Positions 49,680-63,005 of a DNA stretch of 64,000 nt are shown one piece after another (within the stretch, counting starts at the first letter, position 1; the number at the start of each line of letters is the position of its first letter). The translations under genes and the position numbers were made by a program. Below the pieces are notes generated by a model, which did no database searches, was not told where the DNA came from, and saw only the letters and a list, made by a program, of their open reading frames with translations. Location of the stretch: the IMG/VR virus record IMGVR_UViG_3300032294_002710, positions 70,853 through 134,852 of that record; one strand, given 5' to 3'. Source of the DNA: a virus.

Positions 49680-50036
49680 TTAGTGATTTCTTTTTGGCAG
49701 AGGCATATCACTTACTATTTTTACTTTAAAAGTAAATCCATCATCTGTTCCATAAACTGTGTCGGCGTCGTAATTACCACCAAATGTATATGGTTTTGGA
49801 CCATTTGCCTTCATCATTTGTTCGTGTAGTTGTTGCCTTAACTTTTCATCTTCTAACCTACACATTTCCTCATATGGAAGATCCCTTGTTGGATTAAATG
49901 TAGGTTCCTGATAAGTTTGTGGGTTATTTTTATAACCATACTTAGCAAGTAACATCTCAGCCTCATTTTGAGATATATCAGCTGGTTTAATATCTTCTTG
50001 TTGATCTTGTACTATTCTAACTTCTGGTCTATTCAT
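49680..50036 (-). CDS. Hypothetical protein
   Basis: 118-aa ORF. Confidence 0.65.
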   Translation of the reverse strand: MNRPEVRIVQDQQEDIKPADISQNEAEMLLAKYGYKNNPQTYQEPTFNPTRDLPYEEMCRLEDEKLRQQLHEQMMKANGPKPYTFGGNYDADTVYGTDDGFTFKVKIVSDMPLPKRNH

Positions 50037-50039
50037 AAC

Positions 50040-50522
50040 TTATTTATTAATTCTTGTAAGTGTAATAGTGTTATTTCCATAATTGGTCATTTTAAAGTTA
50101 GGAATTGGATTTTTTTGAAGATACCTTAAATACATTTTAGTTCTTTGTGTCATATAATCTTTTTCATTTTTTTTGGCTAATCCTTCAAACTGAATTTTAT
50201 TACATAAAAAAGACTTACTTTTAACAAACTCATTAAGTATTGTTCCAAGAACCGTGTCTACAATTCTAAGAGGATTTGATTCAATTAATTTTGATACTGA
50301 CCAATCATTAATATCATTGTCCCACACAAAATAAGACATCGTGTAATGTTTACTAAGTGTGTTTCTACCAGTGGTTATGTTTTTGAATTGTACTAAGAAC
50401 TTGTTACTATTTTGATCTTCAAAAGTATACTCCACATAGTAGTTATCATCTTTAGTCATTTTCACAGTATCACTAAAAGAATTTGATTCAGTGAATGAAA
50501 TATAATTGTGAATATGTCTCAT
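50040..50522 (-). CDS. Hypothetical protein with capsid-targeting-like N-terminus
   Basis: MRHIHNYISFTE; QRTKMY. Confidence 0.7.
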   Translation of the reverse strand: MRHIHNYISFTESNSFSDTVKMTKDDNYYVEYTFEDQNSNKFLVQFKNITTGRNTLSKHYTMSYFVWDNDINDWSVSKLIESNPLRIVDTVLGTILNEFVKSKSFLCNKIQFEGLAKKNEKDYMTQRTKMYLRYLQKNPIPNFKMTNYGNNTITLTRINK

Positions 50523-50595
50523 AATAATATAATATATATAAAAAAGTGATTTAAAAAACTAATATATACACTATAAAAAAATAATTAAAATTATT

Positions 50596-51048
50596 ATGAA
50601 ACACTTAAAAAAGTTTGAAAACTTTTCTATAAATGAAGAAGAAGAAGCTCTATTTGGTTTAGTACAGACAAATAAAGAGGCTAATAGTAAAATATCTGAA
50701 TATACTCAAGATATTTTGTCTGGTAAGTTTGAAAAAACTGAAGATCTTAAAAAATCTATGAAAAAATATGTTGATGCTAAGCCGGTACAAGGTCTTGGTT
50801 CATCAATGGGTCAATGGATGGGTTACATAAGTAATGTTAATGACCTTTTAAAGGCTCCTAAGAAACCAGAAGGACAATTAGAAGATGCTTTTGGTAAAAT
50901 GAAGCCAGCTACTGAAGTAATTGAAGAAGAGATAGCAAGAATCGTTCTTAAAGACAGATTAGTTGCTAAGAATGATGGTAAGTGGAATGTTGAAAGTAAA
51001 GGTAGAAGCTTTGGTGCAACTCAACACACTTTTGGTGGTGGTGCGTAA
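50596..51048 (+). CDS. Hypothetical protein with capsid-targeting-like N-terminus
   Basis: MKHLKKFENFSINE; AATATATA upstream. Confidence 0.75.
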   Translation: MKHLKKFENFSINEEEEALFGLVQTNKEANSKISEYTQDILSGKFEKTEDLKKSMKKYVDAKPVQGLGSSMGQWMGYISNVNDLLKAPKKPEGQLEDAFGKMKPATEVIEEEIARIVLKDRLVAKNDGKWNVESKGRSFGATQHTFGGGA

Positions 51049-51065
51049 TATATTATTTTTTTATA

Positions 51066-51097
51066 AAAAAAACCCAGTCAATTTGACTGGGTTTTTT
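51066..51097. terminator. Bidirectional intrinsic terminator
   Basis: A-run cccagtcaa-t-ttgactggg T-run between convergent genes. Confidence 0.8.
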
Positions 51098-51099
51098 AT

Positions 51100-51519
51100 T
51101 TAATTATTTTCCAATTTTTTTCTATCACTATCTGTTAGTGATTCAATTCCAAATTGATTTATTTTATCAAGAATGTGATCTACTGTAATGTTTTCATTAA
51201 TAAAGTCGTCGATGTTTTTATTAAAATCATCATCATGAAATTTGATTTGACTAAATAATACATCATCTGTAATATCTTCGTAAGTAAAATCCAAGTTCTT
51301 TTGTCGAAAGAATAAGATAATTCTGGTTAGAACATACCTAGTTGTGATAACATATGAGGACATTTTACCATTAATCTCAAAATCATATGCTTTCATATCA
51401 TAACTTTCCAAATCTTCAATTTCTTGAAATGTTAGATTTTTATAAAGCTCTTCAGCTTCATTTTTTGTTAATTCTGTGTTTATCTTATAAACAAACATAT
51501 TTGTGTATTGTGTTTTCAA
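51100..51519 (-). CDS. Protein with DUF6576-like C-terminus
   Basis: VDHILDKINQFGIESLTDSDRKKL. Confidence 0.65.
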   Translation of the reverse strand: MKTQYTNMFVYKINTELTKNEAEELYKNLTFQEIEDLESYDMKAYDFEINGKMSSYVITTRYVLTRIILFFRQKNLDFTYEDITDDVLFSQIKFHDDDFNKNIDDFINENITVDHILDKINQFGIESLTDSDRKKLENN

Positions 51520-51619
51520 ATATAGTCAATAATTTTAAAAAAACAAGGATTTTATTTTACTATTTTATTTTTTTATTCAGAAAATGTTTGTATATTTGAA
51601 AAACACAATAAGGCAGACG

Positions 51620-51970
51620 ATGTTTAAGAAGTTTTACAAAAATATTTATTCACTACCAGCTTTGGTTCTTCACGAACTTTCTCACATTATTGTTTCATTA
51701 CTCTTTGGTGGTAAACTCAATAATGTTATTATTAAGAGCTGTAGTTCAGTAGATTTGAAAATTTCAAATCTTAAAAATATGACACAAGTTAGAATTGTTG
51801 CTATGGCACCATTGATTGTACCACTTGTGTTTATCGGACTTAGTTTTGTGAATACTGATTTTGTGGTATGTGTTATGTATTCTTTGTCAGTTTTCAAGAC
51901 TACATTACCAAGCCCAACAGACTTTACAACAAGTAAGTTTACCGTACCAAAATTTTTGGCAAAAAAATAA
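51620..51970 (+). CDS. Membrane HExxH (M50-like) peptidase, small
   Basis: LHELSH, VAMAPL, PSPTD. Confidence 0.6.
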   Translation: MFKKFYKNIYSLPALVLHELSHIIVSLLFGGKLNNVIIKSCSSVDLKISNLKNMTQVRIVAMAPLIVPLVFIGLSFVNTDFVVCVMYSLSVFKTTLPSPTDFTTSKFTVPKFLAKK

Positions 51971-52009
51971 ACAAAGGGAACATAGAGTATATAATATATA
52001 CTCTTACAT

Positions 52010-52081
52010 TGCGGGGTAGAGCAGAGGTAGCTCGTCAGGCTCATAACCTGAAGGCCGGTGGTTCGATTCCACCCCCCGCTA
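52010..52081 (+). tRNA. tRNA-Met(CAT), initiator-like
   Basis: Cloverleaf; loop ctCATaa; 1:72 mismatch. Confidence 0.9.
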
Positions 52082-52166
52082 CATGAAAAAGAAAATTTGT
52101 ATTTTTATACAGAAAATAACTCTAAACAAGATTTGCTTAGGTTATTGTAAAAATTAATACTCACAC

Positions 52167-52241
52167 TGCGGGTGGGTGAAACGGAAAATCATTCCAGGCT
52201 CATAACCTGTGAGATACTTGGTTCGACTCCAGGACCCGCTA
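52167..52241 (+). tRNA. tRNA-Met(CAT), initiator-like
   Basis: Cloverleaf; loop ctCATaa; 1:72 mismatch. Confidence 0.8.
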
Positions 52242-52260
52242 CAAAAAAATTAAAAAAATA

Positions 52261-52291
52261 TTTGGAGATTTAAAAAATCTTCGTATATTTG
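52261..52291 (+). promoter_or_regulatory. Bacteroidota-type promoter of the Tyr/Glu tRNA operon
   Basis: TTTG-N19-TATATTTG. Confidence 0.8.
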
Positions 52292-52325
52292 TAAAACAAA
52301 ACAGAACAATTTAAAAATAGAAATC

Positions 52326-52406
52326 ATGGCAACTTTTGAAACATATTATTATGAAGCGTATGAGGAACACTCAGCGACTGGAGATACTATGTCTGTGAAA
52401 AGTTGA
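52326..52406 (+). CDS. Leader peptide 1 (MATFETYYYEAYEEHSATGDTMSVKS), Tyr/Glu attenuator
   Basis: 4 Tyr + 4 Glu in codons 5-14; lies between promoter and terminator. Confidence 0.85.
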   Translation: MATFETYYYEAYEEHSATGDTMSVKS

Positions 52407-52436
52407 TATGTAAGATATTAACTAAAAACACAAGTT

Positions 52437-52470
52437 AACCCAGTCAAAATCAAAATTGACTGGGTTTTTT
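52437..52470 (+). terminator. Attenuator terminator 1
   Basis: aacccagtcaa/ttgactgggtt + T run; 5' arm also complementary to leader gactgg (52376-81). Confidence 0.85.
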
Positions 52471-52484
52471 GTTTTAAAATATAT

Positions 52485-52578
52485 TGGGGTATAACGGTAG
52501 GGCATAGTAAGCGCCCGACAGAGTATATAAAACGCCGTATGGACTACCTGTGAGGAGGTTCGATTCCTTCTACTCCAA
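52485..52578 (+). tRNA. Non-canonical tRNA-Tyr(GTA)-like RNA, D-arm rewired
   Basis: Acceptor tggggta/tactcca, T-arm; degenerate anticodon arm with GTA; acggt pairs with gccgt. Confidence 0.5.
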
Positions 52579-52586
52579 CTAAATAT

Positions 52587-52658
52587 GGTCCCATCATCTA
52601 ATGGTTAGGATACAAGACTTTCAATCTTGAAATGCGGGTTCGATCCCCGTTGGGACTA
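52587..52658 (+). tRNA. tRNA-Glu(TTC)
   Basis: Cloverleaf; caaga-ctTTCaa-tcttg. Confidence 0.92.
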
Positions 52659-52667
52659 CAAAAATAT

Positions 52668-52751
52668 GGGAGAGTAACCGGTAACTGGTAGCCGCGCGGA
52701 CTGTAAATCCGCTCTCATTCGAGACTGGGGGTTCGAGTCCCTCCTCTCCCA
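52668..52751 (+). tRNA. tRNA-Tyr(GTA)
   Basis: gcgga-ctGTAaa-tccgc; long variable arm. Confidence 0.92.
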
Positions 52752-52756
52752 CAAAT

Positions 52757-52830
52757 GCTCTTGTCGTCTAACGGTAGGACTCCTGTTTTTCAAACAGATG
52801 TAGATGCGGGTTCGATTCCCGTCAAGAGTA
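52757..52830 (+). tRNA. tRNA-Glu(TTC)
   Basis: ctgt-ttTTCaa-acag. Confidence 0.85.
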
Positions 52831-52838
52831 CTAAATAT

Positions 52839-52932
52839 GGGATGTGTTGTCACAAGGGGTCTGTAAAACCCCTCTCCGTTAACAAAATTGTGACTGGTTT
52901 GGAGTTTAGAGGTTCGATTCCTTCATATCCCA
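52839..52932 (+). tRNA. Non-canonical tRNA-Tyr(GTA), D-arm rewired
   Basis: ggggt-ctGTAaa-acccc; no D hairpin; gtcacaa pairs with ttgtgac in the variable arm. Confidence 0.75.
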
Positions 52933-52940
52933 CTAAATAT

Positions 52941-53015
52941 GGTCCGTTCGTCTAGCCAGGTCTAGGACATCTCCCTTTCACGGAGAAGACACGGGTTCGA
53001 ATCCCGTACGGACTA
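52941..53015 (+). tRNA. tRNA-Glu(TTC)
   Basis: tctcc-ctTTCac-ggaga. Confidence 0.92.
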
Positions 53016-53021
53016 CAATAT

Positions 53022-53095
53022 GGCCCTGTCGTCTACGATGGCTAGGACATCACCCTCTCAAGGTGAAGAAGGCGGATCGACACCGCTCAGGGCTA
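53022..53095 (+). tRNA. tRNA-Glu(CTC)
   Basis: tcacc-ctCTCaa-ggtga; T-loop ATCGACA variant. Confidence 0.88.
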
Positions 53096-53098
53096 CAA

Positions 53099-53240
53099 AA
53101 ATATCAGGAGTACCTGTCGTAGAAAGTTAATTACTTTCCCTGATATTTATACAACTCAATGATGTAAGTGATTTTGGCAGTACCGACAGGAGGGTGAATT
53201 TAATTAGATTCTTTGGGGTTCGATTCCCACCATTGAGTTA
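53099..53240 (+). ncRNA. Two-module structured RNA (hairpin + tRNA-like unit)
   Basis: aaatatcagg/cctgatattt; aactcaatg/cattgagtt with GTTCGATT T-loop; cross-pairing cctgtcg/cgacagg. Confidence 0.5.
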
Positions 53241-53246
53241 TTTTAT

Positions 53247-53332
53247 TGGAAGGTGGCCGAGTGGTTAATGGCGGCAGACTGTAAATCTGCTCTCTTCGGA
53301 GTACGGGGGTTCGAATCCCTCCCTTCCAACCA
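53247..53332 (+). tRNA. tRNA-Tyr(GTA) with encoded CCA
   Basis: gcaga-ctGTAaa-tctgc; variable arm. Confidence 0.93.
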
Positions 53333-53371
53333 AGAAATTATAAAAAATTTCCTAAAATAAGAAATTTTTTA

Positions 53372-53379
53372 TATATTTG
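53372..53379 (+). promoter_or_regulatory. Bacteroidota-type -7 element
   Basis: TATATTTG. Confidence 0.5.
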
Positions 53380-53439
53380 TAAAGTAAATCAAATGTGGCT
53401 AAGTCCTATATGGCAAAAAGTTCATATTTTGATTTTTAT

Positions 53440-53526
53440 GGGAAAGTACCGAAGTGGTCAAACGGGCCTCAGTCGTAACTGGGGTGGCCTTAGGGTCTTC
53501 AGCGGTTCGAATCCGACTCTTTCCCA
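53440..53526 (+). tRNA. Class II tRNA with irregular anticodon loop (probably Tyr-derived)
   Basis: cctcag-tcgtaa-ctgggg gives a 6- or 8-nt loop; long variable arm; A73. Confidence 0.6.
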
Positions 53527-53593
53527 CTAAAATATTTATTAGGAGAGAAAAACTTTTTAATATATATTTATATAACTTAAAATAAAGATAAAA

Positions 53594-53671
53594 ATGAAAG
53601 CAGTTAATAACATATCAATCATAGGGAACGGCGCGATAGCGGGCGGTGGGCCCATTATGCTGATTGGATAA
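53594..53671 (+). CDS. Leader peptide 2 (MKAVNNISIIGNGAIAGGGPIMLIG), Ile/Gly/Ala attenuator
   Basis: 6 Ile (3 ATA), 6 Gly, 3 Ala in 25 codons; precedes terminator. Confidence 0.85.
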   Translation: MKAVNNISIIGNGAIAGGGPIMLIG

Positions 53672-53697
53672 GTTTTAACTCTTTCATTAAAGATACG

Positions 53698-53728
53698 AAC
53701 CCAGTCAGTAAATTGACTGGGTTTTTTT
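53698..53728 (+). terminator. Attenuator terminator 2
   Basis: aacccagtcag/ttgactgggtt + T run; 5' arm complementary to leader ctgattgg (53660-67). Confidence 0.85.
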
Positions 53729-53733
53729 ATTAT

Positions 53734-53814
53734 CGGCAGGTACCGTTGGATGCTTATATCATCTATACACGTAGCGGGAAGTTGAAAACGTGGGTTCGAA
53801 TCCCACCCTGCCGA
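53734..53814 (+). tRNA. Non-canonical tRNA-Ile(TAT), D-arm rewired
   Basis: cggcagg/cctgccg; ggatg-ctTATat-catct; ccgtt pairs with agcgg. Confidence 0.75.
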
Positions 53815-53816
53815 CA

Positions 53817-53890
53817 AACTCAAACTTGTGTTAACTCCTTGAGAGTGAAGTTGTGTACACAACAGGTTTATTCCCATAAGTCCCTGAGTT
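53817..53890 (+). ncRNA. Structured multibranch element in tRNA operon
   Basis: aactca/tgagtt, acttgtg/cataagt, actc/gagt, gttgt/acaac. Confidence 0.4.
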
Positions 53891-53893
53891 ATT

Positions 53894-53967
53894 GCAGAAG
53901 TGGTGTTTAATGGTTAGCATGTGAGACTTCCACTCTCAAGGTGCCGGTTCGAATCCGGTCTTCTGCT
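53894..53967 (+). tRNA. tRNA-Gly(TCC)
   Basis: tgaga-ctTCCac-tctca; U73. Confidence 0.92.
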
Positions 53968-53974
53968 CAGATAT

Positions 53975-54048
53975 GTCGATGACGCATAAATGGTGGTGCA
54001 CCTGATTGCCAATCAGGAATAGAGCCGGTTCGATCCCGGTTATCGACT
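53975..54048 (+). tRNA. tRNA-Gly(GCC)
   Basis: cctga-ttGCCaa-tcagg; U73. Confidence 0.88.
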
Positions 54049-54063
54049 CAGACTTTTCAATAT

Positions 54064-54101
54064 GCCGGAGGACTCCCTGTTAGTCCCAGGGTCCGGCTCC
54101 A
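54064..54101 (+). ncRNA. Acceptor-stem minihelix ending in UCCA
   Basis: gccgga/tccggc followed by t-cca. Confidence 0.35.
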
Positions 54102-54175
54102 GGGGCAGCATGTACCAAGGCTGGCGAAGATTTCTGGCAGAAATCTTGTGATGGATTCAATTTCCATCTGCTCCA
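54102..54175 (+). tRNA. tRNA-Ala(GGC), atypical D-arm, 7-bp anticodon stem
   Basis: G3:U70; aagattt-ctGGCag-aaatctt. Confidence 0.75.
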
Positions 54176-54184
54176 CAAAAATTA

Positions 54185-54259
54185 GGGGATGCATGTACTG
54201 AGGCTAAGCGAAAAGCACTTGCAATGCTTTTGATGTGATTTCGACTATCACCATCTCCA
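54185..54259 (+). tRNA. tRNA-Ala(TGC), atypical D-arm, 7-bp anticodon stem
   Basis: G3:U70; aaaagca-ctTGCaa-tgctttt. Confidence 0.78.
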
Positions 54260-54378
54260 CGAGTTCGATAGAGAAACTCTCCACTTTATGAATGATTTTG
54301 AAAATGTTTTACAAAGGAAGAAGAGTATTAGAAATCAAAAATATCTTGAAAGTCTTAAATAATTTCATATATTTGTAA

Positions 54379-54654
54379 AAATTAAATCTTATTGCCGCAG
54401 AAACAAATAGTAAATTACCTGGTCAATACTGGGAACAATTAAATAAACACGGATTACCTAACTATCTTTACTTAGGGGATGAATTAGTAATCGTTGACAG
54501 TATTGAGAAAAGAAAGAGAAAAAATGGCGCGAAAGTCGATCAGATATATTATATTCTGAGTGATGGTAGAGTAAAGCACGCATCTTTTTTCAAAAAGATT
54601 GATATAAAAGTAATAAAAAGAGATTATCTATTAAATAGTATCTTAAATGATTAA
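54379..54654 (+). CDS. Open frame without ATG/GTG/TTG start (non-canonical start or damaged gene)
   Basis: 91 sense codons after TATATTTG promoter; ends IKRDYLLNSILND overlapping tilS start. Confidence 0.5.
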   Translation, partial: KLNLIAAETNSKLPGQYWEQLNKHGLPNYLYLGDELVIVDSIEKRKRKNGAKVDQIYYILSDGRVKHASFFKKIDIKVIKRDYLLNSILND

Positions 54655-55234
54655 AGTCTTAGGTAAAATTCCTAAAGGTGAATTTGGACTTGCCTGTTCA
54701 GGTGGGGTTGATTCGATGGCTATTGCTAACTTTTTAGTTAATGGTGGTTACAATCCACATATTCTATACTTTAATCATAATACTGAACACGGAGATCTTG
54801 CCGAGAAGTTTGTAACTGAATATTGTCAGAGACATAATCTAAAACTCACAATTGGTAGAACTGATCTTAAACCTCAATCAAATAAAGAAAAGATTTGGAG
54901 TGATTTGAGATATGAGTTTTTCTCAAAATTTGATTTTCCTGTTATTACTTGCCATCATTTAGATGATTGTGTTGAGACTTACATTTTCTCTTGTCTTAGA
55001 GGATTTCAATCGGTTATTCCTTATTCTAAGGGTAATGTAATTCGCCCATTCCTATTGAATGAAAAATCACAATTTTATAAGTGGTGTGAGAATAAAGGAG
55101 TGCCTTTTATTGAGGATGAATCAAATTCATGTGTAGATTATTCAAGAAATCGTATTCGTCATAATATTGTTCCAGAGTCACTGTTGGTAAATCCTGGATT
55201 GAAAACTGTTGTTAAGAAGATGATTACTCTGTAA
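54647..55234 (+). CDS. tilS: tRNA(Ile)-lysidine synthetase, catalytic domain only
   Basis: PP-loop SGGVDSM, RY, HHLDDCVET, IRPFL, DESN..YSRNRIRH. Confidence 0.9.
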   Translation: MIKVLGKIPKGEFGLACSGGVDSMAIANFLVNGGYNPHILYFNHNTEHGDLAEKFVTEYCQRHNLKLTIGRTDLKPQSNKEKIWSDLRYEFFSKFDFPVITCHHLDDCVETYIFSCLRGFQSVIPYSKGNVIRPFLLNEKSQFYKWCENKGVPFIEDESNSCVDYSRNRIRHNIVPESLLVNPGLKTVVKKMITL

Positions 55235-56267
55235 AGTAGATATAGAACTGTTTACAATTTTCCCTATTTGGTACATAGTCTAATTTGGTTTTAAATCCTT
55301 CAGATTTAAAGTAAGATACAATTTCTTCTATTACTGAATTAACTTCATCTAAGATAATTTTGTGTCTAGAAAACCCAGAATCATTTTTTAATGCTCCTGA
55401 TATCCAAACATAAGGATCATTTTGGGTCCACCAAATATGATGCCTATAAATACTATTGCTATCTTTAAGATCTAGTAATATATCATTAACACTTTTTTCA
55501 ATTTCTCTTCTAATTGGGCTTTCAGGTCGGCACCAGTCATATTTATATTGTGGTTTACTGATACTCTCATTGATTTGATCATCCTTCTCATAGAATTCTA
55601 TAATAATGAAGTCACCTTTAAATCCATAATTCATTATATCTGGTTGGGAAATACTTTTTTGATGTTTTAATTGTGGTTCGATCCATTTTTTGAATTCCTC
55701 AATACTATTTAAAGTAATTTCCTCTTCTTTTGTTACGTTATCACTTGTTAAGAAAATTTTATACTCATAATCCTCCATATATCTCACAATATTTTCCAAA
55801 TATTGAATTAGTGTATCATTTATCCGACCACCTCTATCATTAATCCCTGGAGTGTTCCAATCAAATTCATCTAATGGTTCAAGAATAACTTTACAAGAAT
55901 ATTCATCTTCATTATACTTTTCAGTATTTGTATGAATAGTTATACTCCATTCACCTTCATCTTGTAAATCTAAAGATAAATCTTTTAGATGTTCAGAATC
56001 TTCATCTATATTGAATGATTCATTTAGATTTTCATACCATTCTTGTCCTTTGTAATAATGATTCCAAGGTTTAAAATCAGACTTTTTTAATTCTCTTCCA
56101 ACTCTTTTTTCTAAACAAGAAACACAGATATACTTATTTTGTTTAGATTTAGGTATGTATTTTGACCACCCTTCAAACCAATAGTCTTCTGGAAATTTAC
56201 CACAATCAGCACATTCTGCCCATTTAGGTTTTTTATTAAAATCTTCAAATATTTTTAAGTATTTCAT
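55224..56267 (-). CDS. Modular protein with capsid-targeting-like N-terminus and zinc finger
   Basis: MKYLKIFEDF; CADC..CVSC; internal LNES and INES. Confidence 0.7.
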   Translation of the reverse strand: MKYLKIFEDFNKKPKWAECADCGKFPEDYWFEGWSKYIPKSKQNKYICVSCLEKRVGRELKKSDFKPWNHYYKGQEWYENLNESFNIDEDSEHLKDLSLDLQDEGEWSITIHTNTEKYNEDEYSCKVILEPLDEFDWNTPGINDRGGRINDTLIQYLENIVRYMEDYEYKIFLTSDNVTKEEEITLNSIEEFKKWIEPQLKHQKSISQPDIMNYGFKGDFIIIEFYEKDDQINESISKPQYKYDWCRPESPIRREIEKSVNDILLDLKDSNSIYRHHIWWTQNDPYVWISGALKNDSGFSRHKIILDEVNSVIEEIVSYFKSEGFKTKLDYVPNRENCKQFYIYFTE

Positions 56268-56705
56268 TTATATACTGTATTTTATACCAATTTGCCTTAC
56301 GGTTGTATCTATCCATTTAGGATTTAGCAAATCATCAATACTCATATCAAGGCCTGTATTGAGATTGCTATGTATCCAAATTTTGGATATTTTACCACCT
56401 ATTGACTCTATGTAACTTTTAGAAGATAATAATGTGTTTATTATTTCTGATGGTTTAAATAATGATGGTTTGTAGTTTACCCAATCTTCAATTTCTTCAC
56501 CCGTTTCATCATCAATTTTATATGTAATTAAAGATTTTTTTGAAATACTTACATCGATATAGTTGAAGTGTTTATGATGTATATTCTGTGGAACTACTCT
56601 TACATCAAATTCTTCACTTATTTCAGAGTAAATATCTTTAATATATTCAATCATCTCTTCAATTTCCGAAGGTTCGTATGACTCGAATTTTTTTAAGTAT
56701 TTCAT
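56268..56705 (-). CDS. Hypothetical protein, paralog of 57415
   Basis: MKYLKKFESY; YIKDIYSEISEEF, SSKSYIESIGGKISKIW. Confidence 0.75.
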   Translation of the reverse strand: MKYLKKFESYEPSEIEEMIEYIKDIYSEISEEFDVRVVPQNIHHKHFNYIDVSISKKSLITYKIDDETGEEIEDWVNYKPSLFKPSEIINTLLSSKSYIESIGGKISKIWIHSNLNTGLDMSIDDLLNPKWIDTTVRQIGIKYSI

Positions 56706-57415
56706 AAAGGATCTTGAATTACTTCACCATTTTTATCTAATAGTTTAAACTCTTTTGGTTCAAAATAATTATTAGTATATGTTACTTCTCCCTTATTATT
56801 CTTCAGTCTAATATCACCTCCAAATCCAGTATATTTATCAACCAGACCCTTGTGTTCTTGTCCATCTATTGTGAATTCTGCGAATACTTCACCATTTTTA
56901 ATTCTATCTTTAAATAACTTTTTTCTGTATATTACTTCTGGATCTTTTAGATATTTCAACTTTTGCTCTTGATCCTTTATCTTTTTATCCTGTATAGTTG
57001 TTAATTCGGATAATAGTATTTCATATTTACCAGTCTTTTCATCAAATTGACCAATTGAATAGTGTGTATTATTTTTAACTGGTTCAGTAGTTTGACAATG
57101 AACTTTAGGTCCTCTATTTGTTACAAAGTTCCAATGGTCTGATACACGATATGATTTATCAGGCTTAGATTCCCAAGATATATCATCTGACGAATAAAAC
57201 GATTTAGAGTAAGGTGATTTATATATAATCGGCCATTCCTTCATCATTTCTATAATTGAATCTGGAATTCCAAATTGAGATAGTTCTTCTGGTTGATATA
57301 TTTTACCTGTTGGACTTGGATTGTTTTTATGCCAAAGTTCATTTCTAAGTTGTCTTTTACTTTTAACAACCTCTTCACCGCTTTCAAAATCTTCAAATAG
57401 TTTTAAGAATCTCAT
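56702..57415 (-). CDS. Hypothetical protein (RVSDHW motif)
   Basis: MRFLKLFEDF; KSPYSKSFY, YRVSDHWNF. Confidence 0.7.
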   Translation of the reverse strand: MRFLKLFEDFESGEEVVKSKRQLRNELWHKNNPSPTGKIYQPEELSQFGIPDSIIEMMKEWPIIYKSPYSKSFYSSDDISWESKPDKSYRVSDHWNFVTNRGPKVHCQTTEPVKNNTHYSIGQFDEKTGKYEILLSELTTIQDKKIKDQEQKLKYLKDPEVIYRKKLFKDRIKNGEVFAEFTIDGQEHKGLVDKYTGFGGDIRLKNNKGEVTYTNNYFEPKEFKLLDKNGEVIQDPL

Positions 57416-57873
57416 TATAGTATATATTCTATATTAATTTGTACTAAATCTCCGAGATCTGAATGACGATTTAAAAACTCATCAAAACTTAGAGTTATAC
57501 CATCATTTGGATTTGATATATGTAACCATACTTTGGATATTTCACCATCAACTGATTCGATATAACTTTTTGATGTTAGTATTAATTCCATCACTTCGTC
57601 TATTTTAAAAGTAGCTTGTTTAAATTTTGACCAATCATCTGTACCATCCGACTTTTTAAACTCTGGCGATTCCTTGAATATGTTTATGCCTATTGAAGAG
57701 GATTTCCAATTGTGTGTATTTGTGTTATAAGATTTTATATTAAAATCATCTGATATTTCGGAGAAAATATCTTTTAAGTAATCAGACACTTCCTTAAATT
57801 CTTTATCATTAGTTGATTGATGATGGCTTTTTTTGAAGTCATCAAACATTTCAAATAGTTTTAAATATCTCAT
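57415..57873 (-). CDS. Hypothetical protein, paralog of 56268
   Basis: MRYLKLFEMF; YLKDIFSEISDDF, TSKSYIESVDGEISKVW. Confidence 0.75.
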   Translation of the reverse strand: MRYLKLFEMFDDFKKSHHQSTNDKEFKEVSDYLKDIFSEISDDFNIKSYNTNTHNWKSSSIGINIFKESPEFKKSDGTDDWSKFKQATFKIDEVMELILTSKSYIESVDGEISKVWLHISNPNDGITLSFDEFLNRHSDLGDLVQINIEYIL

Positions 57874-57909
57874 TTTTTATATATTAAAAAATCAATTATA
57901 TTTGTAGTT

Positions 57910-58281
57910 ATGATATATGAGTTCTTTACAGATAAAACAACTGGACCACTTACTAATTTTCTAAGTAGTTTGGCTAACATGCCCACTCTGAAGATGCTAG
58001 ATTACACTCTATTAGAGTATCATACACTTGATGTTAAAGAGTATGGTGTTAAGAGGTTTACTTTTGGATATGAAGGTAATACATTTAAGTTTTACTTATC
58101 AAAAAGTGATACTATTGGTTTATCATTTGAGGATAATACCATGCCACATACTGGTGCATTTCATCATTTTAGACTCTATTATACTGGAAACTCAATTAAT
58201 AATTACAAGGTTAATGACGAGATTAGGCAATATTTGTTATCTTTTGTAAGAGATTATAAATTGAGTCAAATAGTAAAATAA
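57910..58281 (+). CDS. Hypothetical protein
   Basis: TATATTTG at 57897; C-terminal RDYKLSQIV. Confidence 0.65.
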   Translation: MIYEFFTDKTTGPLTNFLSSLANMPTLKMLDYTLLEYHTLDVKEYGVKRFTFGYEGNTFKFYLSKSDTIGLSFEDNTMPHTGAFHHFRLYYTGNSINNYKVNDEIRQYLLSFVRDYKLSQIVK

Positions 58282-58282
58282 A

Positions 58283-59237: not shown

Positions 59238-59266
59238 ATATATATTTGTAAAACTAATTTTCAAAA

Positions 59267-60587: not shown

Positions 60588-60618
60588 TTTGAAAGATTAA
60601 AACTTTTTCATATATTTG
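60588..60618 (+). promoter_or_regulatory. Bacteroidota-type promoter of the third tRNA operon
   Basis: TTTG-N19-TATATTTG. Confidence 0.8.
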
Positions 60619-60663
60619 TATAAAATAACACAAAGAGACAAAAACTTTTTAATATATAAAAAA

Positions 60664-60777
60664 ATGAGAACAATGAATCTAAATATCACAAATTTGAACC
60701 TCACAATGGTGGTGAATAATACATTATGTATTAGAACCGCTGGTTCGGGTTGTGCAAAATTTGGATTTATCTCGTGA
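60664..60777 (+). CDS. Leader peptide 3 (MRTMNLNITNLNLTMVVNNTLCIRTAGSGCAKFGFIS), multi-amino-acid attenuator
   Basis: First 25 codons use only M,R,T,N,L,I,V,C, the set of downstream tRNAs. Confidence 0.88.
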   Translation: MRTMNLNITNLNLTMVVNNTLCIRTAGSGCAKFGFIS

Positions 60778-60804
60778 TGAATTGATATAATCCAAAAAAG
60801 ATAC

Positions 60805-60840
60805 AAACCCGAACCGTAAAAAGTTCGGGTTTTTTGTTTT
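60805..60840 (+). terminator. Attenuator terminator 3
   Basis: aaacccgaac/gttcgggttt + T run; 5' arm has a perfect 10-nt complement ggttcgggtt (60742-51) in the leader. Confidence 0.88.
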
Positions 60841-60844
60841 ATAC

Positions 60845-60919
60845 GCTCCCGTAGCCCAATTGGCAGAGGCAACAGACTTAAACCCTGTACAGGTATCGGT
60901 TCGAATCCGATGGGGAGTA
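60845..60919 (+). tRNA. tRNA with anticodon TAA (Leu), short variable region
   Basis: acaga-ctTAAac-cctgt. Confidence 0.75.
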
Positions 60920-60967
60920 CAAAAAGAGAAGGTGACATATCGCACTCTGAAAATGCGAAATGGTAAT

Positions 60968-61051
60968 GCCCAGGTGGTGGAATTGGTAGACACCCCGGTC
61001 TAAGAAGCCGGTGTCCGTAAGGACGTGAGAGTTCGAGTCTCTCCTTGGGTA
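60968..61051 (+). tRNA. tRNA-Leu(AAG)
   Basis: ccggt-ctAAGaa-gccgg; variable arm. Confidence 0.88.
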
Positions 61052-61119
61052 CGAAAGTTTTTAACCCCTTCCAGATATTTCCGCTGTTGTCTGGAAGGGG
61101 TGGAGACAAGGATTAAAAT

Positions 61120-61202
61120 ACCTTTGTGGCGAAATTGGTAGCACGCGCTGGTCTTAGAAACCAGTTCCGAAAGGAGTGTCGGTTCGAATCCGACTAAAGG
61201 TA
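61120..61202 (+). tRNA. tRNA-Leu(TAG)
   Basis: ctggt-ctTAGaa-accag. Confidence 0.92.
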
Positions 61203-61208
61203 CAAAAT

Positions 61209-61281
61209 GGTCTCTTCGTCCAACTGGACAGGACATCGGTCTTCTAAACCGAGGATATGGGTTCGAATCCCGTAGGGACTA
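61209..61281 (+). tRNA. tRNA-Arg(TCT)
   Basis: tcggt-ctTCTaa-accga. Confidence 0.9.
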
Positions 61282-61287
61282 CTAAAA

Positions 61288-61372
61288 GGATGGGTTGCTT
61301 TAGAGGCCGAAAAGTCTGGACTGTTAATCCAGTGTCGCAAGACCACCGTGGGTTCGAATCCCACCCTGTCCT
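61288..61372 (+). tRNA. tRNA-Asn(GTT) with long variable arm
   Basis: ctgga-ctGTTaa-tccag; gtc-gcaa-gac arm. Confidence 0.8.
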
Positions 61373-61385
61373 CAAAATTATATAC

Positions 61386-61472
61386 TGGCAGTTGGCCGAG
61401 AGGACGATGGCAGTGGACTGTTAATCCACCGTAGCGAAAGCTCCAACATAGGTTCGAATCCTATACTGTCAG
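61386..61472 (+). tRNA. tRNA-Asn(GTT) with long variable arm
   Basis: gtgga-ctGTTaa-tccac; agc-gaaa-gct arm; G73. Confidence 0.85.
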
Positions 61473-61483
61473 CTAACAAAATA

Positions 61484-61565
61484 CGGCAAGTACCAGCCCA
61501 TCCTGATAAGATGGAGAACTGTAGTTGGTATGTTGAAAACGTGGGTTCGAGTCCCACCTTGCCGA
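61484..61565 (+). tRNA. Non-canonical tRNA-Ile(GAT), D-arm rewired
   Basis: cggcaag/cttgccg; ccatc-ctGATaa-gatgg; taccagc pairs with gttggta. Confidence 0.78.
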
Positions 61566-61575
61566 CAAAGGATTA

Positions 61576-61649
61576 GCCTCCTTAGCTTTAATTGGTAGAG
61601 CACCTGACTTGTAATCAGGGGGTTGTCGGTTCGAGTCCGGCAGGAGGCT
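61576..61649 (+). tRNA. tRNA-Thr(TGT)
   Basis: cctga-ctTGTaa-tcagg. Confidence 0.93.
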
Positions 61650-61656
61650 CATATAT

Positions 61657-61739
61657 AGGAATAGTAATTGAAAGAGATACTTCGATCAAACTTCTAATTT
61701 GGCAACGAAACCAAAAACTCTTTTAAGATTTTCTTTCCT
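61657..61739 (+). ncRNA. Y-RNA-like RNA copy C
   Basis: agga/tcct, tagtaat, ttgaaagag/ctcttttaa, ATACTTCG motif. Confidence 0.55.
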
Positions 61740-61743
61740 TTAT

Positions 61744-61826
61744 GCACAGGTGGTAGAGTGGCGAATGCAACGGCCTGCAAAGCCGTAGTCGAAAGACCAT
61801 CGGGGGTTCGAGTCCCTCCCTGTGCT
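61744..61826 (+). tRNA. tRNA-Cys(GCA) with long variable arm
   Basis: acggc-ctGCAaa-gccgt; gtc-gaaa-gac arm; U73. Confidence 0.87.
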
Positions 61827-61832
61827 CAACTT

Positions 61833-61903
61833 GCCCCGGTGGCGTAATGGGAGCGTACTTGTTTTACATGCAAGTGGCAGTGGTTCGAATCCACTTCGGG
61901 GTA
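61833..61903 (+). tRNA. tRNA-Val(TAC)
   Basis: cttgt-ttTACat-gcaag. Confidence 0.87.
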
Positions 61904-61910
61904 CTAAAAT

Positions 61911-61984
61911 TGGAATATAGCTCAGTTGGTTAGAGCAATTCGCTGATACCGAATAGGTCGCTGGTTCGAGTCCAGCTATTCCAA
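61911..61984 (+). tRNA. tRNA-Ile(GAT)
   Basis: attcg-ctGATac-cgaat. Confidence 0.92.
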
Positions 61985-61989
61985 CAAAA

Positions 61990-62103
61990 ATGTATGGTGA
62001 TTAAAAGTGTTACTTCGTGAAATGGTTAACACAATTGTTTTAAACACAATTATTTACTGGTTCGAATCCAGTAGTATAAACCACTTTTAAACCTTTCCTA
62101 CAT
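61990..62103 (+). ncRNA. Y-RNA-like RNA copy D with tRNA-like domain (YrlA-type architecture)
   Basis: atgta/tacat, ttaaaagtg/cacttttaa, TTACTTCG, then D-arm, anticodon-like arm and T-arm actgg-TTCGAAT-ccagt. Confidence 0.7.
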
Positions 62104-62108
62104 TTAAT

Positions 62109-62193
62109 GCCGATGTGGCTCAGTGGCGACAGCACCGGTTTTGTAAACCGGAGACGATTTAGTCCAGCGGGGGTTCGAGTCCCTCCATCGGCT
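62109..62193 (+). tRNA. tRNA-Thr(TGT) with long variable arm
   Basis: ccggt-ttTGTaa-accgg. Confidence 0.85.
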
Positions 62194-62195
62194 CA

Positions 62196-62303
62196 ATGAA
62201 TGTGTGAATGCACGATAAACTAAAACGGCACCAGCGGAGACTGGAGTGGATATTGGAAACACATAACCACCACAAATGTAGGAGAATACCCTACCACATT
62301 CAT
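62196..62303 (+). ncRNA. tRNA-like structured RNA of unknown type
   Basis: atgaatgtg/cacattcat acceptor-like stem; gtagg-agaatac-cctac T-like arm; ccag/ctgg and gtgg/ccac hairpins. Confidence 0.5.
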
Positions 62304-62308
62304 CAAAT

Positions 62309-62382
62309 AGTCTTGTAGCTCAGTTGGTTAGAGCGTTTGGTCGACATCCAAAAGGTCATCGGTTCGAATCCGGTCAGGACTA
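62309..62382 (+). tRNA. tRNA-Val(GAC)
   Basis: tttgg-tcGACat-ccaaa (C33). Confidence 0.88.
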
Positions 62383-62387
62383 CAAAA

Positions 62388-62459
62388 GCCAATGTCGTAT
62401 AACGGCAATTACACACCGTTGGTATCGGTGAGACACCAGTTCAACTCTGGTCTTTGGCT
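62388..62459 (+). tRNA. tRNA-Thr(GGT)
   Basis: caccg-ttGGTat-cggtg. Confidence 0.85.
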
Positions 62460-62464
62460 CAAAT

Positions 62465-62554
62465 GCCTCAGTGGCGAAACTGGTTGAAACGCCTTAGTCT
62501 TAGGAACTAAGACCCAAGTGGTAAACGTTGTCGGTTCGAATCCGACCTGAGGTA
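62465..62554 (+). tRNA. tRNA-Leu(TAG)
   Basis: ttagt-ctTAGga-actaa; variable arm. Confidence 0.9.
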
Positions 62555-62571
62555 CAAAAAATATAATAAAA

Positions 62572-62775
62572 ATGGCAAAGTGGTATAACATAGTTAAAAG
62601 ATATAAAGGTGAATCTAAGAGTCACAAGAGATTTTATTCTTCCAGAGATATGATGGAGTTAAAAAGAATGATATCAGTTGCAAACTCGGAGGCTAAAAGA
62701 GGTTTGAGAAAACCTTATAAAGGAATCTCACCTTGTGGATGTGGAATGGAAGGATGTTTCATTTTGTATTCATAA
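62572..62775 (+). CDS. Small basic protein inside tRNA operon
   Basis: 67 aa between tRNAs; CGCGMEGC. Confidence 0.55.
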   Translation: MAKWYNIVKRYKGESKSHKRFYSSRDMMELKRMISVANSEAKRGLRKPYKGISPCGCGMEGCFILYS

Positions 62776-62780
62776 AAAAT

Positions 62781-62865
62781 GCCGAAATGGCGGAACTGGT
62801 AGACGCGCCGGCCTCAAAAGCTGGTGTCCTTAAAGGACGTGTGGGTTCGAGTCCCACTTTCGGTA
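62781..62865 (+). tRNA. tRNA-Leu(CAA)
   Basis: ccggc-ctCAAaa-gctgg; variable arm. Confidence 0.92.
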
Positions 62866-62870
62866 CAAAT

Positions 62871-62942
62871 GGCGATATGGTGTAACGGCAAGCTCACATG
62901 GCTCATATCCTTGAGGACCAGGTTCGATTCCTGGTATCGCTA
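62871..62942 (+). tRNA. tRNA(CAT), elongator Met or Ile2
   Basis: catgg-ctCATat-ccttg. Confidence 0.8.
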
Positions 62943-63005
62943 CCTTGAATTTTTTTAAAAATAAACCAAGATGGAGAAATTGTGATATAAAAATGAAATT
63001 TAAAA

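What the first reader, a model, noticed from the sequence alone, without database searches (positions are those of the whole stretch)
52326..53332. Tyr/Glu attenuator: leader ETYYYEAYEE precedes only Tyr and Glu tRNAs
Eight of codons 5-14 are TAT, GAA or GAG. The array has Tyr(GTA) x4 including two atypical, Glu(TTC) x3 and Glu(CTC), the last matching the single GAG. Antiterminator: gactgg (52376-81) with ccagtc, tgtg with caca, and agttgatat (contains the TGA stop) with atattaact.
Basis: partly seen in the sequence, partly recalled or inferred. Interest (0 to 1): 0.86.

Follow-up and report, generated by a model that had tools for sequence, protein, structure and literature searches.

The report
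Leader-peptide attenuator gating phage tRNA genes
In this large phage, a block of tyrosine and glutamate tRNA genes sits behind a tiny test gene rich in tyrosine and glutamate codons and a switchable transcription stop, so the phage probably makes these tRNAs only when ribosomes read those codons slowly.

Summary
ORF 52326-52406 (MATFETYYYEAYEEHSATGDTMSVKS) has TAT/GAA/GAG at 8 of codons 5-14. It ends 30 nt before an 11-bp terminator (52437-52466). After it come Glu(ttc) x3, Glu(ctc), Tyr(gta) x2 and D-armless Tyr-like genes.

It is one of three such units in the window. Unit B has an Ile/Gly/Ala leader and an Ile(tat)-like, Gly, Ala array. Unit C has an eight-amino-acid leader and a 17-tRNA array.

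In relatives, 62 of 63 terminators that precede tRNAs have a short ORF ending 20-34 nt upstream (9.4% at random positions). Leader residues track the downstream tRNAs: 395 of 1049 match, against 184 +/- 18 after shuffling (0 of 20,000). The match holds at codon level (AGA vs CGN, ATA vs ATY) and only in the ORF frame. Antiterminator strands change together with the terminator arms in the unit-C family.

Best reading: a trp/his-style ribosome-mediated attenuator that feeds decoding speed back onto tRNA gene transcription.

Weak points:
- There is no expression evidence.
- Unit A's antiterminator is about 9 kcal/mol weaker than its terminator.

Nine literature searches found no description for tRNA genes. 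This scan has noted the same arrangement before on other genomes.

The parts
52261..52291 (+). Promoter-like site of unit A: TTTG, 19 nt, TATATTTG. This is the Bacteroidota-type -33/-7 pattern; the consensus is recalled, not tested.
   Evidence: Pattern TTTG-N17-21-TAnnTTTG gives 14 matches in the window against 4.07 +/- 2.18 in shuffles (0 of 100 shuffles reach 14). This site is one of the 14.
52326..52406 (+). Leader ORF of unit A: 26 codons plus TGA (MATFETYYYEAYEEHSATGDTMSVKS).
   Evidence: It ends 30 nt before the terminator stem, inside the 20-34 nt range seen in 62 of 63 related units.
52338..52367 (+). Control codons 5-14: TAT x4, GAA x3, GAG x1, plus ACA and GCG.
   Evidence: Ranks first of 805 short ORFs for E/Y density.
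52341..52392 (+). Predicted 1:2 hairpin of the untranslated leader. It buries the control codons and the start of the antiterminator strand (anti-antiterminator).
   Evidence: Free-RNA MFE, nt 16-67 of the leader. Prediction only.
52376..52445 (+). Antiterminator: a long imperfect hairpin. GACTGG 52376-81 pairs with CCAGTC 52440-45. The inner helix AGTTGATAT 52401-09 (holds the TGA stop) pairs with ATATTAACT 52415-23.
   Evidence: RNAfold with the 3' arm withheld, and with a ribosome masked at codons 8-12. Duplex with its own 5' arm is -11.0 kcal/mol against -6.2 for shuffles (2 of 200 as good). It ranks first against the arms of 19 other terminator classes.
52437..52470 (+). Intrinsic terminator: AACCCAGTCAA, loop of 8, TTGACTGGGTT, then TTTT.
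   Evidence: The hairpin alone is -15.8 kcal/mol.
52484..53332 (+). Regulated array. In order: Tyr-like D-armless gene 52484-52579; Glu(ttc) 52587-52659; Tyr(gta) 52668-52752; Glu(ttc) 52757-52831; D-armless Tyr(GUA loop) 52838-52935; Glu(ttc) 52941-53016; Glu(ctc) 53022-53096; hairpin plus tRNA-like 53100-53240; Tyr(gta) 53247-53332.
53594..53728 (+). Unit B. Leader MKAVNNISIIGNGAIAGGGPIMLIG (53594-53671; Ile x6 of which ATA x3, Gly x6, Ala x3) and terminator 53698-53723 with its T tract. CTGATTGG at the ORF end pairs with CCAGTCAG.
   Evidence: (all 10 nt of the 5' arm pair upstream when a ribosome is masked at codons 8-14).
53734..54260 (+). Array B: D-armless Ile-like gene (loop CUUAUAU), Gly(tcc), Gly(gcc), Ala(ggc) 54105-54176, Ala(tgc).
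   Evidence: Relatives have an ARAGORN-called Ile(tat) at the same first position.
60588..60835 (+). Unit C. Promoter-like site 60588-60618; leader MRTMNLNITNLNLTMVVNNTLCIRTAGSGCAKFGFIS (60664-60777); region 2 GGTTCGGGTTG 60742-52; terminator 60806-60831.
   Evidence: (the antiterminator is the MFE, or within 2.5 kcal/mol of it, when a ribosome is masked at codons 8-14).
60845..62944 (+). Array C: 17 ARAGORN tRNAs (Leu x7, Arg, Asn x2, Thr x4... in full: Leu, Arg, Asn, Thr, Cys, Val, Ile, Met only) plus a D-armless Ile(GAU loop) gene at 61484-61565.

Best explanation
Unit A is a ribosome-mediated (leader-peptide) transcription attenuator that controls a phage tRNA-Tyr/tRNA-Glu gene array.

Proposed mechanism (inferred):
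1. Transcription starts at the promoter-like site near 52291.
2. A ribosome translates the 26-codon leader.
3. If Tyr (TAT) or Glu (GAA/GAG) codons 5-14 are decoded slowly, because charged tRNA-Tyr or tRNA-Glu is scarce, the stalled ribosome melts the 1:2 hairpin. The strand 52376-52409 is then free to pair with 52415-52445. This sequesters CCAGTC of the terminator's 5' arm, so RNA polymerase reads on into the tRNA genes.
4. If decoding is fast, the ribosome runs to the TGA, which sits inside the antiterminator's 5' strand, and unwinds it. The terminator 52437-52466 forms and transcription stops.
5. With no translation at all, the 1:2 hairpin plus the terminator form, so the default state is off.

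The product (tRNA) relieves the signal (slow decoding), so this would be a direct negative feedback on the tRNA pool, one array at a time.

Shown by sequence: the ORF, codon run, terminator, complementary strands, gene order, and the family-wide co-variation of leader and tRNA set.

Inferred: translation of the leader, coupling to the polymerase, and the direction of the switch.
For: (1) Anatomy at the stated coordinates.

(2) Two more units of the same build lie in the window, with different codon sets that match their own arrays. By my count from those calls, 26 of the 28 ARAGORN tRNAs lie behind the three units.

(3) The 634,780-bp phage LR745206.1 has 7 such units: H/K/F/S/W; Y/E; I/G/A; N/L/T/V/I/C/R/M; P/Q/D; Q. 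By my count, 52 of its 61 tRNA matches lie behind them.

(4) Two scans of viral contigs were made, one seeded on the terminator and one on an unrelated upstream motif. In the resulting loci, 62 of 63 terminators followed by a tRNA within 260 nt have an ATG ORF of 12-60 codons ending 20-34 nt upstream, against 1882 of 20,000 random positions.

(5) Leader and tRNA set match.
- 38 non-redundant units: 395 of 1049 residues match, against 183.8 +/- 18.2 when sets are shuffled among units (maximum 266; 0 of 20,000 reach the observed value).
- Codon level: 362 of 1074 against 156.5 +/- 16.8 (0 of 20,000).
- The match is frame-specific: 362 of 1074 in frame, against 143 of 1035 and 129 of 1035 in the other two frames.

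(6) Tyr and Glu specifically, in 45 non-redundant units.
- Leaders with 3 or more Tyr: 12 of 12 have a Tyr tRNA downstream, against 4 of 33 of the others (p = 6.3e-8).
- Leaders with 3 or more Glu: 6 of 7 against 6 of 38 (p = 6.9e-4).

(7) Isoacceptor level (my tally).
- Arrays with Arg(acg/gcg) have leaders with CGN 8 and AGA 2. Arrays with Arg(tct) have AGA 5 and CGN 0.
- Arrays with Ile(tat) have ATA 17 and ATY 9. Arrays with Ile(gat) have ATY 7 and ATA 1.

(8) Antiterminator.
- Unit A's strand pairs with its own 5' arm better than with 19 other classes of arm.
- In the unit-C family, four different terminator arms (CCCGAAC, CCCTCAGA, CCCTTAGA, CCCCTAGA) each come with a matching copy of the 3' arm inside the ORF.
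Against: - There is no evidence of expression or of regulated readthrough. The only RNA-labelled data were assembled contigs that mostly cover conserved tRNA bodies and give nothing on leader A.
- Unit A's antiterminator covers only 6 of the 11 nt of the 5' arm. It is 8.7-9.8 kcal/mol less stable than the terminator alternative even with a ribosome masked at codons 8-12, so it must win kinetically.
- Across the family, my simple duplex measure shows specific complementarity in only part of the units. 15 of 39 have z < -2, and 15 of 57 rank first against other arm classes. The P/D, S/R and CCCAATC-arm units do not stand out.
- Units are related by descent, so the shuffles overstate independence. 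About ten distinct codon classes are the real sample.
- Many leaders share an N-terminal T/I/N-rich motif (MxTITNI) that is not matched by tRNAs in their arrays.
- ARAGORN misses the atypical tRNAs, so the tRNA sets are incomplete.
- It is unknown which polymerase transcribes the arrays, and whether it couples to ribosomes.
- More tRNA would not cure stalling caused by amino-acid shortage.
Confidence: 0.8

Rival explanations
1. The leader RNA senses tRNAs directly, without a ribosome, by codon-anticodon pairing (T-box-like). The 'ORF' would then be incidental.
For: The codons match the anticodons of the downstream tRNAs. A terminator/antiterminator pair is also the expression platform of T-boxes (established knowledge).
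Against: - No T-box family, or any other riboswitch family, matched 50000-64000 at E up to 1.
- The matched codons are many, tandem, and in one frame bounded by ATG and a stop: 362 of 1074 in frame against about 13% in the other frames.
- The stop codon keeps a fixed distance of 20-34 nt from the terminator in 62 of 63 units. That spacing makes sense for a ribosome, not for tRNA docking.
Confidence: 0.05
2. The short ORFs are translated, but they act through RNA processing, transcript stability or Rho-like polarity rather than through the intrinsic terminator. Alternatively the switch has the opposite sign, with efficient translation promoting tRNA expression.
For: Unit A's antiterminator is thermodynamically weak. 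In several unit families no specific antiterminator was found by my measure.
Against: - Every unit has a GC-rich hairpin plus T tract immediately before the first tRNA.
- The stop codon lies inside or next to the strand that competes with the terminator.
- In units B and C a ribosome masked at the control codons yields the antiterminator, while one masked on the stop codon yields the terminator.
Confidence: 0.1
3. The ORF/array match is chance or shared ancestry, and the ORFs are non-functional or encode small peptides with another role.
For: For unit A alone the composition test is modest (P = 8.3e-3). Units are homologous, so part of the correlation is inherited.
Against: - About ten different codon classes each match their own array. 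These include fused arrays whose leader carries the union of residues: MRTIINIEAIGYAYEAGS... precedes Glu, Tyr, Ile(tat), Gly, Ala.
- Peptide sequence is poorly conserved while composition tracks the tRNAs.
- Shuffles never reach the observed match.
Confidence: 0.03

Closest known systems
Leader-peptide attenuators of enterobacterial amino-acid operons (trpL, hisL, leuL, pheL; multivalent thrL and ilvL of ilvGMEDA). Named from established knowledge, not from a call.
   Same: A promoter-proximal short ORF with a run of control codons, an intrinsic terminator before the first regulated gene, a competing antiterminator whose 5' strand lies in or near the ORF's 3' end, and a 1:2 pairing in the untranslated RNA. 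Like thr and ilv, it is multivalent (several amino acids in one leader).
   Different: - The regulated genes are tRNAs, not biosynthetic enzymes, so the sensed molecule and the product are of the same kind.
- It is carried by a phage.
- There are up to eight amino acids per leader (unit C).
- One scaffold (N-terminal MxTITNI, terminator CCCAGTC/GACTGGG) is reused with different codon cassettes.
- No Rfam leader family matches.
pheM leader of the pheST (phenylalanyl-tRNA synthetase) operon of E. coli (recalled)
   Same: Attenuation by a leader peptide applied to a gene of the translation apparatus that handles the same amino acid as the control codons.
   Different: It controls a synthetase protein, not tRNA genes. 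It has a single amino acid and is cellular.
T-box riboswitches
   Same: They link the state of a specific tRNA to a terminator/antiterminator choice.
   Different: They bind tRNA directly through a specifier codon and the T-box sequence, without translation, and they control synthetase, biosynthesis and transport genes. No T-box match was found here.
Anabaena sp. PCC 7120 trn operon (long tRNA array induced by translational stress)
   Same: An accessory tRNA array that is silent by default and switched on when translation is impaired (PMC8421152, passages read; PMC10272220, abstract read).
   Different: Control there is at the promoter, through direct repeats bound by the repressor TrcR. The words attenuat*, leader and terminator occur 0 times in PMC8421152. 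That control is not codon-specific.

Membership tests
Ribosome-mediated (leader-peptide) transcription attenuators | A short ORF with start and stop codons between the promoter and the first regulated gene | tested here: met
   ORF 52326-52406. 62 of 63 related sites have one, against 9.4% of random positions.
Ribosome-mediated (leader-peptide) transcription attenuators | Enrichment of control codons cognate to what the operon supplies | tested here: met
   8 of codons 5-14 are Tyr/Glu. The family-wide match holds at residue, codon and frame level.
Ribosome-mediated (leader-peptide) transcription attenuators | An intrinsic terminator between the leader ORF and the regulated genes | tested here: met
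   52437-52466 plus T tract.
Ribosome-mediated (leader-peptide) transcription attenuators | A mutually exclusive antiterminator that involves the ORF's 3' part and the terminator's 5' arm | tested here: inconclusive
   It is predicted for unit A (6 of 11 arm nt; 8.7-9.8 kcal/mol weaker than the terminator). It is strong in unit C, with co-varying arms in its family. By a simple duplex test it is specific in only 15 of 57 units.
Ribosome-mediated (leader-peptide) transcription attenuators | Readthrough rises when the cognate codons are decoded slowly and depends on leader translation | not testable with these tools
   This needs reporter assays or infected-cell Term-seq and Ribo-seq. The RNA contigs were uninformative.
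Ribosome-mediated (leader-peptide) transcription attenuators | Regulated genes are amino-acid biosynthesis or synthetase genes (the classical scope) | tested here: not met
   Only tRNA and tRNA-like genes follow the terminator. I therefore file it as a new variant, not as a member of any named leader family.
Rfam amino-acid leader families (His, Leu, Thr, Trp, Phe leaders) | A match to the family covariance model | tested here: not met
   cmscan of 50000-64000 at E up to 1 lists none of them. It shows only a weak L20_leader match at 63300-63421 (25.1 bits, E = 0.26), away from the units.
T-box riboswitch | Stem I with specifier loop and a conserved T-box sequence (covariance model match) | tested here: not met
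   No T-box match at E up to 1.

The most novel reading that the evidence does not exclude
These units are modular, codon-programmable sensors of the tRNA pool. One scaffold is re-tuned by swapping its codon cassette. This would let a large phage detect which isoacceptors have become limiting during infection, whether through host tRNA-cleaving defence, phage-induced decay of host tRNA, or a codon-usage mismatch. The phage would then switch on exactly the array that replaces them. That is a demand-driven control of tRNA genes not described for any cell or virus.
Probability: 0.3. Interest if true: 0.92.

Novelty: new variant of a known kind. Interest (0 to 1): 0.85.

Why it matters
tRNA genes are usually seen as controlled by growth-rate or stringent mechanisms, or as constitutive. 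A codon-specific attenuator in front of tRNA arrays would be a direct feedback from decoding speed to tRNA supply.

- It would explain why the tRNA genes of huge phages are sorted into isotype blocks.
- It would give a testable account of when phage tRNAs are needed.
- It would supply natural, compact sensors of the decoding speed of chosen codons.
- It would improve annotation. The small ORFs and the D-armless tRNAs are missed by standard tools.

Tried and rejected
Expression evidence. The look-up of sequencing runs listed 20 runs. The four RNA-labelled runs held only 0.06-0.09 of the sampled words and are kept as contigs. Laid at 90% likeness, they cover mostly tRNA bodies, often with loose ends that belong to other organisms. 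Depth is zero over 52348-52495 in all four runs. This says nothing for or against transcription or termination. One 220-nt contig of RNA run X19 spans 53549-53766, across unit B's leader and terminator, with 7 differences. It may be DNA carry-over or a relative, so I do not count it.

GenBank phages. 202 records matched, nearly all through single tRNA genes. Only LR745206.1 was syntenic.

Column-wise covariation. I planned to run the count of structure pairs on alignment A1, but MAFFT put the terminator arms of the window and L091 one column out of register with the other seven rows. I compared arms per sequence instead.

Atypical tRNAs. ARAGORN in relaxed, intron and mitochondrial modes gave the Ala(ggc) gene and the 4-base-anticodon tRNA. 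For the D-armless genes it gave only spurious intron or overlapping calls.

Ideas rejected:
- Lambda bar-type minigenes that deplete tRNA by drop-off. Those are two-codon ORFs without terminators (recalled).
- A T-box-like direct sensor (see rivals).
- Leader peptides as conserved small proteins. Their sequences diverge while composition tracks the arrays.

Literature. Nine searches returned no paper describing leader-peptide attenuation of tRNA genes. I judged this from search listings and abstracts only. Subscription journals and supplements are outside that library.
Full report
WHAT IS THERE

The window is the last 64 kb of a 134,852-bp virus contig with 30% G+C. The contig encodes ribonucleotide reductase, a family-B DNA polymerase, a helicase and a TROVE/Ro60-like protein.

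At 52326-52406 lies a 26-codon ORF, MATFETYYYEAYEEHSATGDTMSVKS. Codons 5-14 are GAA ACA TAT TAT TAT GAA GCG TAT GAG GAA. A TTTG-N19-TATATTTG promoter-like site lies at 52261-52291. That pattern occurs 14 times in the window against 4.07 +/- 2.18 in shuffles.

Thirty nucleotides after the TGA comes an 11-bp G+C-rich hairpin with a T tract, at 52437-52470. Behind it, ARAGORN and Rfam find Glu(ttc) x3, Glu(ctc) and Tyr(gta) x2, and no other isotype, up to the next promoter-like site at 53372.

The three gaps in the array hold tRNA-like genes with normal acceptor and T arms but no D hairpin.
- 52838-52935 has a clean CUGUAAA loop.
- 52484-52579 belongs to a conserved family whose relatives carry TGTAAG in the homologous loop. 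The window copy reads ATAGTAAG.

IT IS NOT ALONE

Two more units of the same build are in the window.

Unit B:
- Leader 53594-53671, MKAVNNISIIGNGAIAGGGPIMLIG, with Ile x6 (three of them ATA), Gly x6 and Ala x3.
- It precedes a D-armless gene with loop CUUAUAU, then Gly(tcc), Gly(gcc), Ala(ggc) and Ala(tgc).

Unit C:
- Leader 60664-60777, MRTMNLNITNLNLTMVVNNTLCIRTAGSGCAKFGFIS.
- Its first 25 codons use only M, R, T, N, L, I, V and C.
- It precedes 17 tRNAs for exactly those eight amino acids.

By my count, 26 of the 28 ARAGORN tRNAs of the window lie behind the three units. Two Met(cat) genes do not.

RELATIVES

The best GenBank match is LR745206.1, an uncultured phage of 634,780 bp. It has 61 Rfam tRNA matches. 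The four array regions plus L001 hold seven leader-terminator units:
- MTTNSTHKNFSKSHKWFS... before His, Phe, Trp, Lys, Arg, Ser
- ...SYESYYEE... before Glu, Tyr
- MKNLNNISIAVIGNGAGAI... before Ile(tat), Gly
- MTTMNLNMTMNLTLNVVNITLCNIR... before Asn, Arg, Leu, Val, Ile, Thr, Met
- ...APVNPQPQDQDP... before Pro, Asp
- MTTTQQIQQQQINQTD before Gln x3

By my count from the coordinates, 52 of the 61 tRNA matches lie behind a unit.

A scan of IMG/VR with the terminator pattern gave 116 stretches. A second scan, with an unrelated 17-nt motif found upstream of leaders B and C, gave 90 stretches. In all these loci plus the window, 63 terminators are followed by a tRNA within 260 nt. Of these, 62 have an ATG ORF of 12-60 codons ending 20-34 nt upstream. 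The one exception sits at a locus edge. Such an ORF occurs at 1882 of 20,000 random positions.

Further classes appear:
- MKMITQQQQQ before Gln x3
- ...YYKQYYYK... before Lys, Lys, Tyr, Lys
- ...SSSSSRSS... before Arg, Ser
- YQKQYQPKGGKPYG before Pro, Gln, Lys, Tyr, Thr, Gly
- N/I/D/E/Y/C-rich leaders before Asn, Asp, Tyr, Cys
- MRTIINIEAIGYAYEAGS... before Glu, Tyr, Ile(tat), Gly, Ala, a fused array whose leader carries the union of residues

STATISTICS

- In 38 non-redundant units (60% or less ungapped identity; 49 units before filtering), 395 of 1049 leader residues are amino acids of the unit's own tRNAs. When tRNA sets are shuffled among units the figure is 183.8 +/- 18.2, with a maximum of 266 and 0 of 20,000 shuffles reaching the observed value.
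- With strict wobble at codon level, 362 of 1074 match against 156.5 +/- 16.8 (0 of 20,000).
- The match is confined to the ORF frame: 362 of 1074, against 143 of 1035 and 129 of 1035 in the other frames.
- In 45 non-redundant units, leaders with 3 or more Tyr have a Tyr tRNA behind them in 12 of 12 cases, against 4 of 33 of the others. For Glu the figures are 6 of 7 against 6 of 38.
- Synonymous choice follows the isoacceptor (my tally). Arg(acg/gcg) arrays have CGN 8 and AGA 2; Arg(tct) arrays have AGA 5 and CGN 0. By hand, Fisher p is about 0.007. Ile(tat) arrays have ATA 17 and ATY 9; Ile(gat) arrays have ATY 7 and ATA 1.

The units are homologous, so these shuffles overstate independence. 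About ten distinct codon classes are the effective sample.

For unit A alone, 8 E/Y of 25 codons gives P = 8.3e-3 against the contig's long ORFs. It ranks first of 805 short ORFs for E/Y density.

RNA SWITCH

For unit A:
- The free leader folds into a 1:2 hairpin (nt 16-67) plus the terminator.
- With the 3' arm withheld, or with a ribosome masked at codons 8-12, GACUGG (52376-81) pairs with CCAGUC (52440-45).
- This structure covers only 6 of the 11 arm nucleotides. It is 8.7-9.8 kcal/mol less stable than the terminator alternative, so it would have to act kinetically. That is also the case for the classical trp attenuator (recalled).

For units B and C:
- Unit B shows a long 1:2 pairing in the free RNA, and full 5'-arm sequestration under a stalled ribosome (difference 5.4-8.2 kcal/mol).
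- Unit C's antiterminator is the MFE, or within 2.5 kcal/mol of it, under stalling.
- With a ribosome on the stop codon the terminator returns in all three units.

Covariation:
- In the unit-C family, nine sequences carry four kinds of terminator arm (CCCGAAC, CCCTCAGA or CCCTCAGT, CCCTTAGA, CCCCTAGA). Each has a matching copy of the 3' arm inside the ORF: GGTTCGGG, (T)CTGAGGG, CTGAGGG with one G-U pair, and TCTAGGGG.
- Over all units the picture is mixed. 15 of 39 have duplex z < -2. 15 of 57 pair best with their own arm among 20 classes, and by my tally 29 of 57 rank in the best three, where about 9 are expected.
- The P/D, S/R and CCCAATC-arm units do not stand out by this simple measure.

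MECHANISM AND RIVALS

The best reading is a trp/his-type attenuator whose output is tRNA. Slow decoding of the control codons leads to antitermination and transcription of the array; fast decoding or no translation leads to termination.

A ribosome-free, T-box-like sensor is unlikely. There is no Rfam match, and the signal is frame-bound with a fixed distance from stop codon to terminator.

Action through processing, or with the opposite sign, cannot be excluded without experiments. Chance is excluded by the family-wide tests.

KNOWN OR NEW

Nine full-text searches found no account of leader-peptide attenuation of tRNA genes. I judged them from listings and abstracts.

The nearest system in print is the Anabaena trn array. 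It is induced by translational stress through promoter repeats and the repressor TrcR (PMC8421152, passages; PMC10272220, abstract). That is a different mechanism and is not codon-specific.

Earlier notes of this scan describe the same arrangement on other genomes. They also list units B and C and the D-armless tRNAs of this window as separate first-reader findings. I tested those claims here on this DNA and its relatives.

I rate it as a new variant of a known kind of control. Interest is high, and the function is unproven.

Noticed in passing
window 52484-52579, 52838-52935, 53734-53817, 61484-61565: Four tRNA-like genes have normal acceptor and T arms but no D hairpin. The strand after the acceptor stem pairs with the region 3' of the anticodon arm, giving one long composite arm. 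The loops read GUA (52838), UAU (53734) and GAU (61484). These match the isotype of their arrays, and the UAU loop matches the ATA codons of leader B. ARAGORN and Rfam do not call them.
   Followed up: partly
window 53100-53240: A 48-nt hairpin (53100-53147) is followed by a tRNA-like element (53153-53240). The element has a 9-bp acceptor stem, a T arm and an unpaired AUGUAAG, with no clear anticodon arm.
   Followed up: no
window 53372-53525: A promoter-like TATATTTG site (53372) drives a long-variable-arm tRNA (53440-53525). ARAGORN calls it only at a relaxed threshold, with a 4-base anticodon (cgta). It has no leader ORF of the attenuator type. Relatives also carry tRNAs with 4-base or 2-base 'anticodons': L054 atca, L120 gtag, L162 acat, L011 tg, L121 gt.
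   Followed up: partly
window 61288-61473, 61744-61827, 62109-62194: Asn(gtt) genes of 86 and 88 nt, a Cys(gca) gene of 84 nt and a Thr(tgt) gene of 86 nt are as long as long-variable-arm tRNAs. That length is unusual for these isotypes.
   Followed up: no
window 53553-53565 and 60645-60657; also L001, L087, L091, L119: The motif AAACTTTTTAATATATA lies 10-30 nt upstream of the ATG of leaders B and C and of relatives' leaders. In LR745206.1 it also lies upstream of a leaderless tRNA-Met. It may be a second, phage-specific promoter or a 5'-UTR element. Used as a scan seed, it recovered 13 further units.
   Followed up: partly
window 60453-60575: A promoter-like site (60453-60483) is followed by a structured stretch of about 75 nt that ends in a hairpin and T tract, with no ORF. 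It is a candidate small RNA just upstream of unit C.
   Followed up: no
window 62573-62775: A 67-codon ORF sits inside tRNA array C, between Leu(tag) and Leu(caa)/Met(cat).
   Followed up: no
window 21142-22590: A protein with TROVE and Ro60-type vWA domains (Pfam E = 6.9e-16). Ro60/Rsr proteins work with tRNA-like Y RNAs (recalled), which may be relevant to the odd tRNA-like genes.
   Followed up: no
window 54105-54176: tRNA-Ala(ggc) is found only at a relaxed ARAGORN threshold. It completes array B as Ile-like, Gly, Gly, Ala, Ala.
   Followed up: partly
leaders of many units (for example L001, L046, L081, L136): Leaders with different control codons share an N-terminal motif M-x-T-(I/L)-(T/N)-N-I and often the same terminator arms (CCCAGTC/GACTGGG). 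This suggests one scaffold duplicated and re-tuned. The motif itself is not explained by the tRNA content of the arrays.
   Followed up: partly
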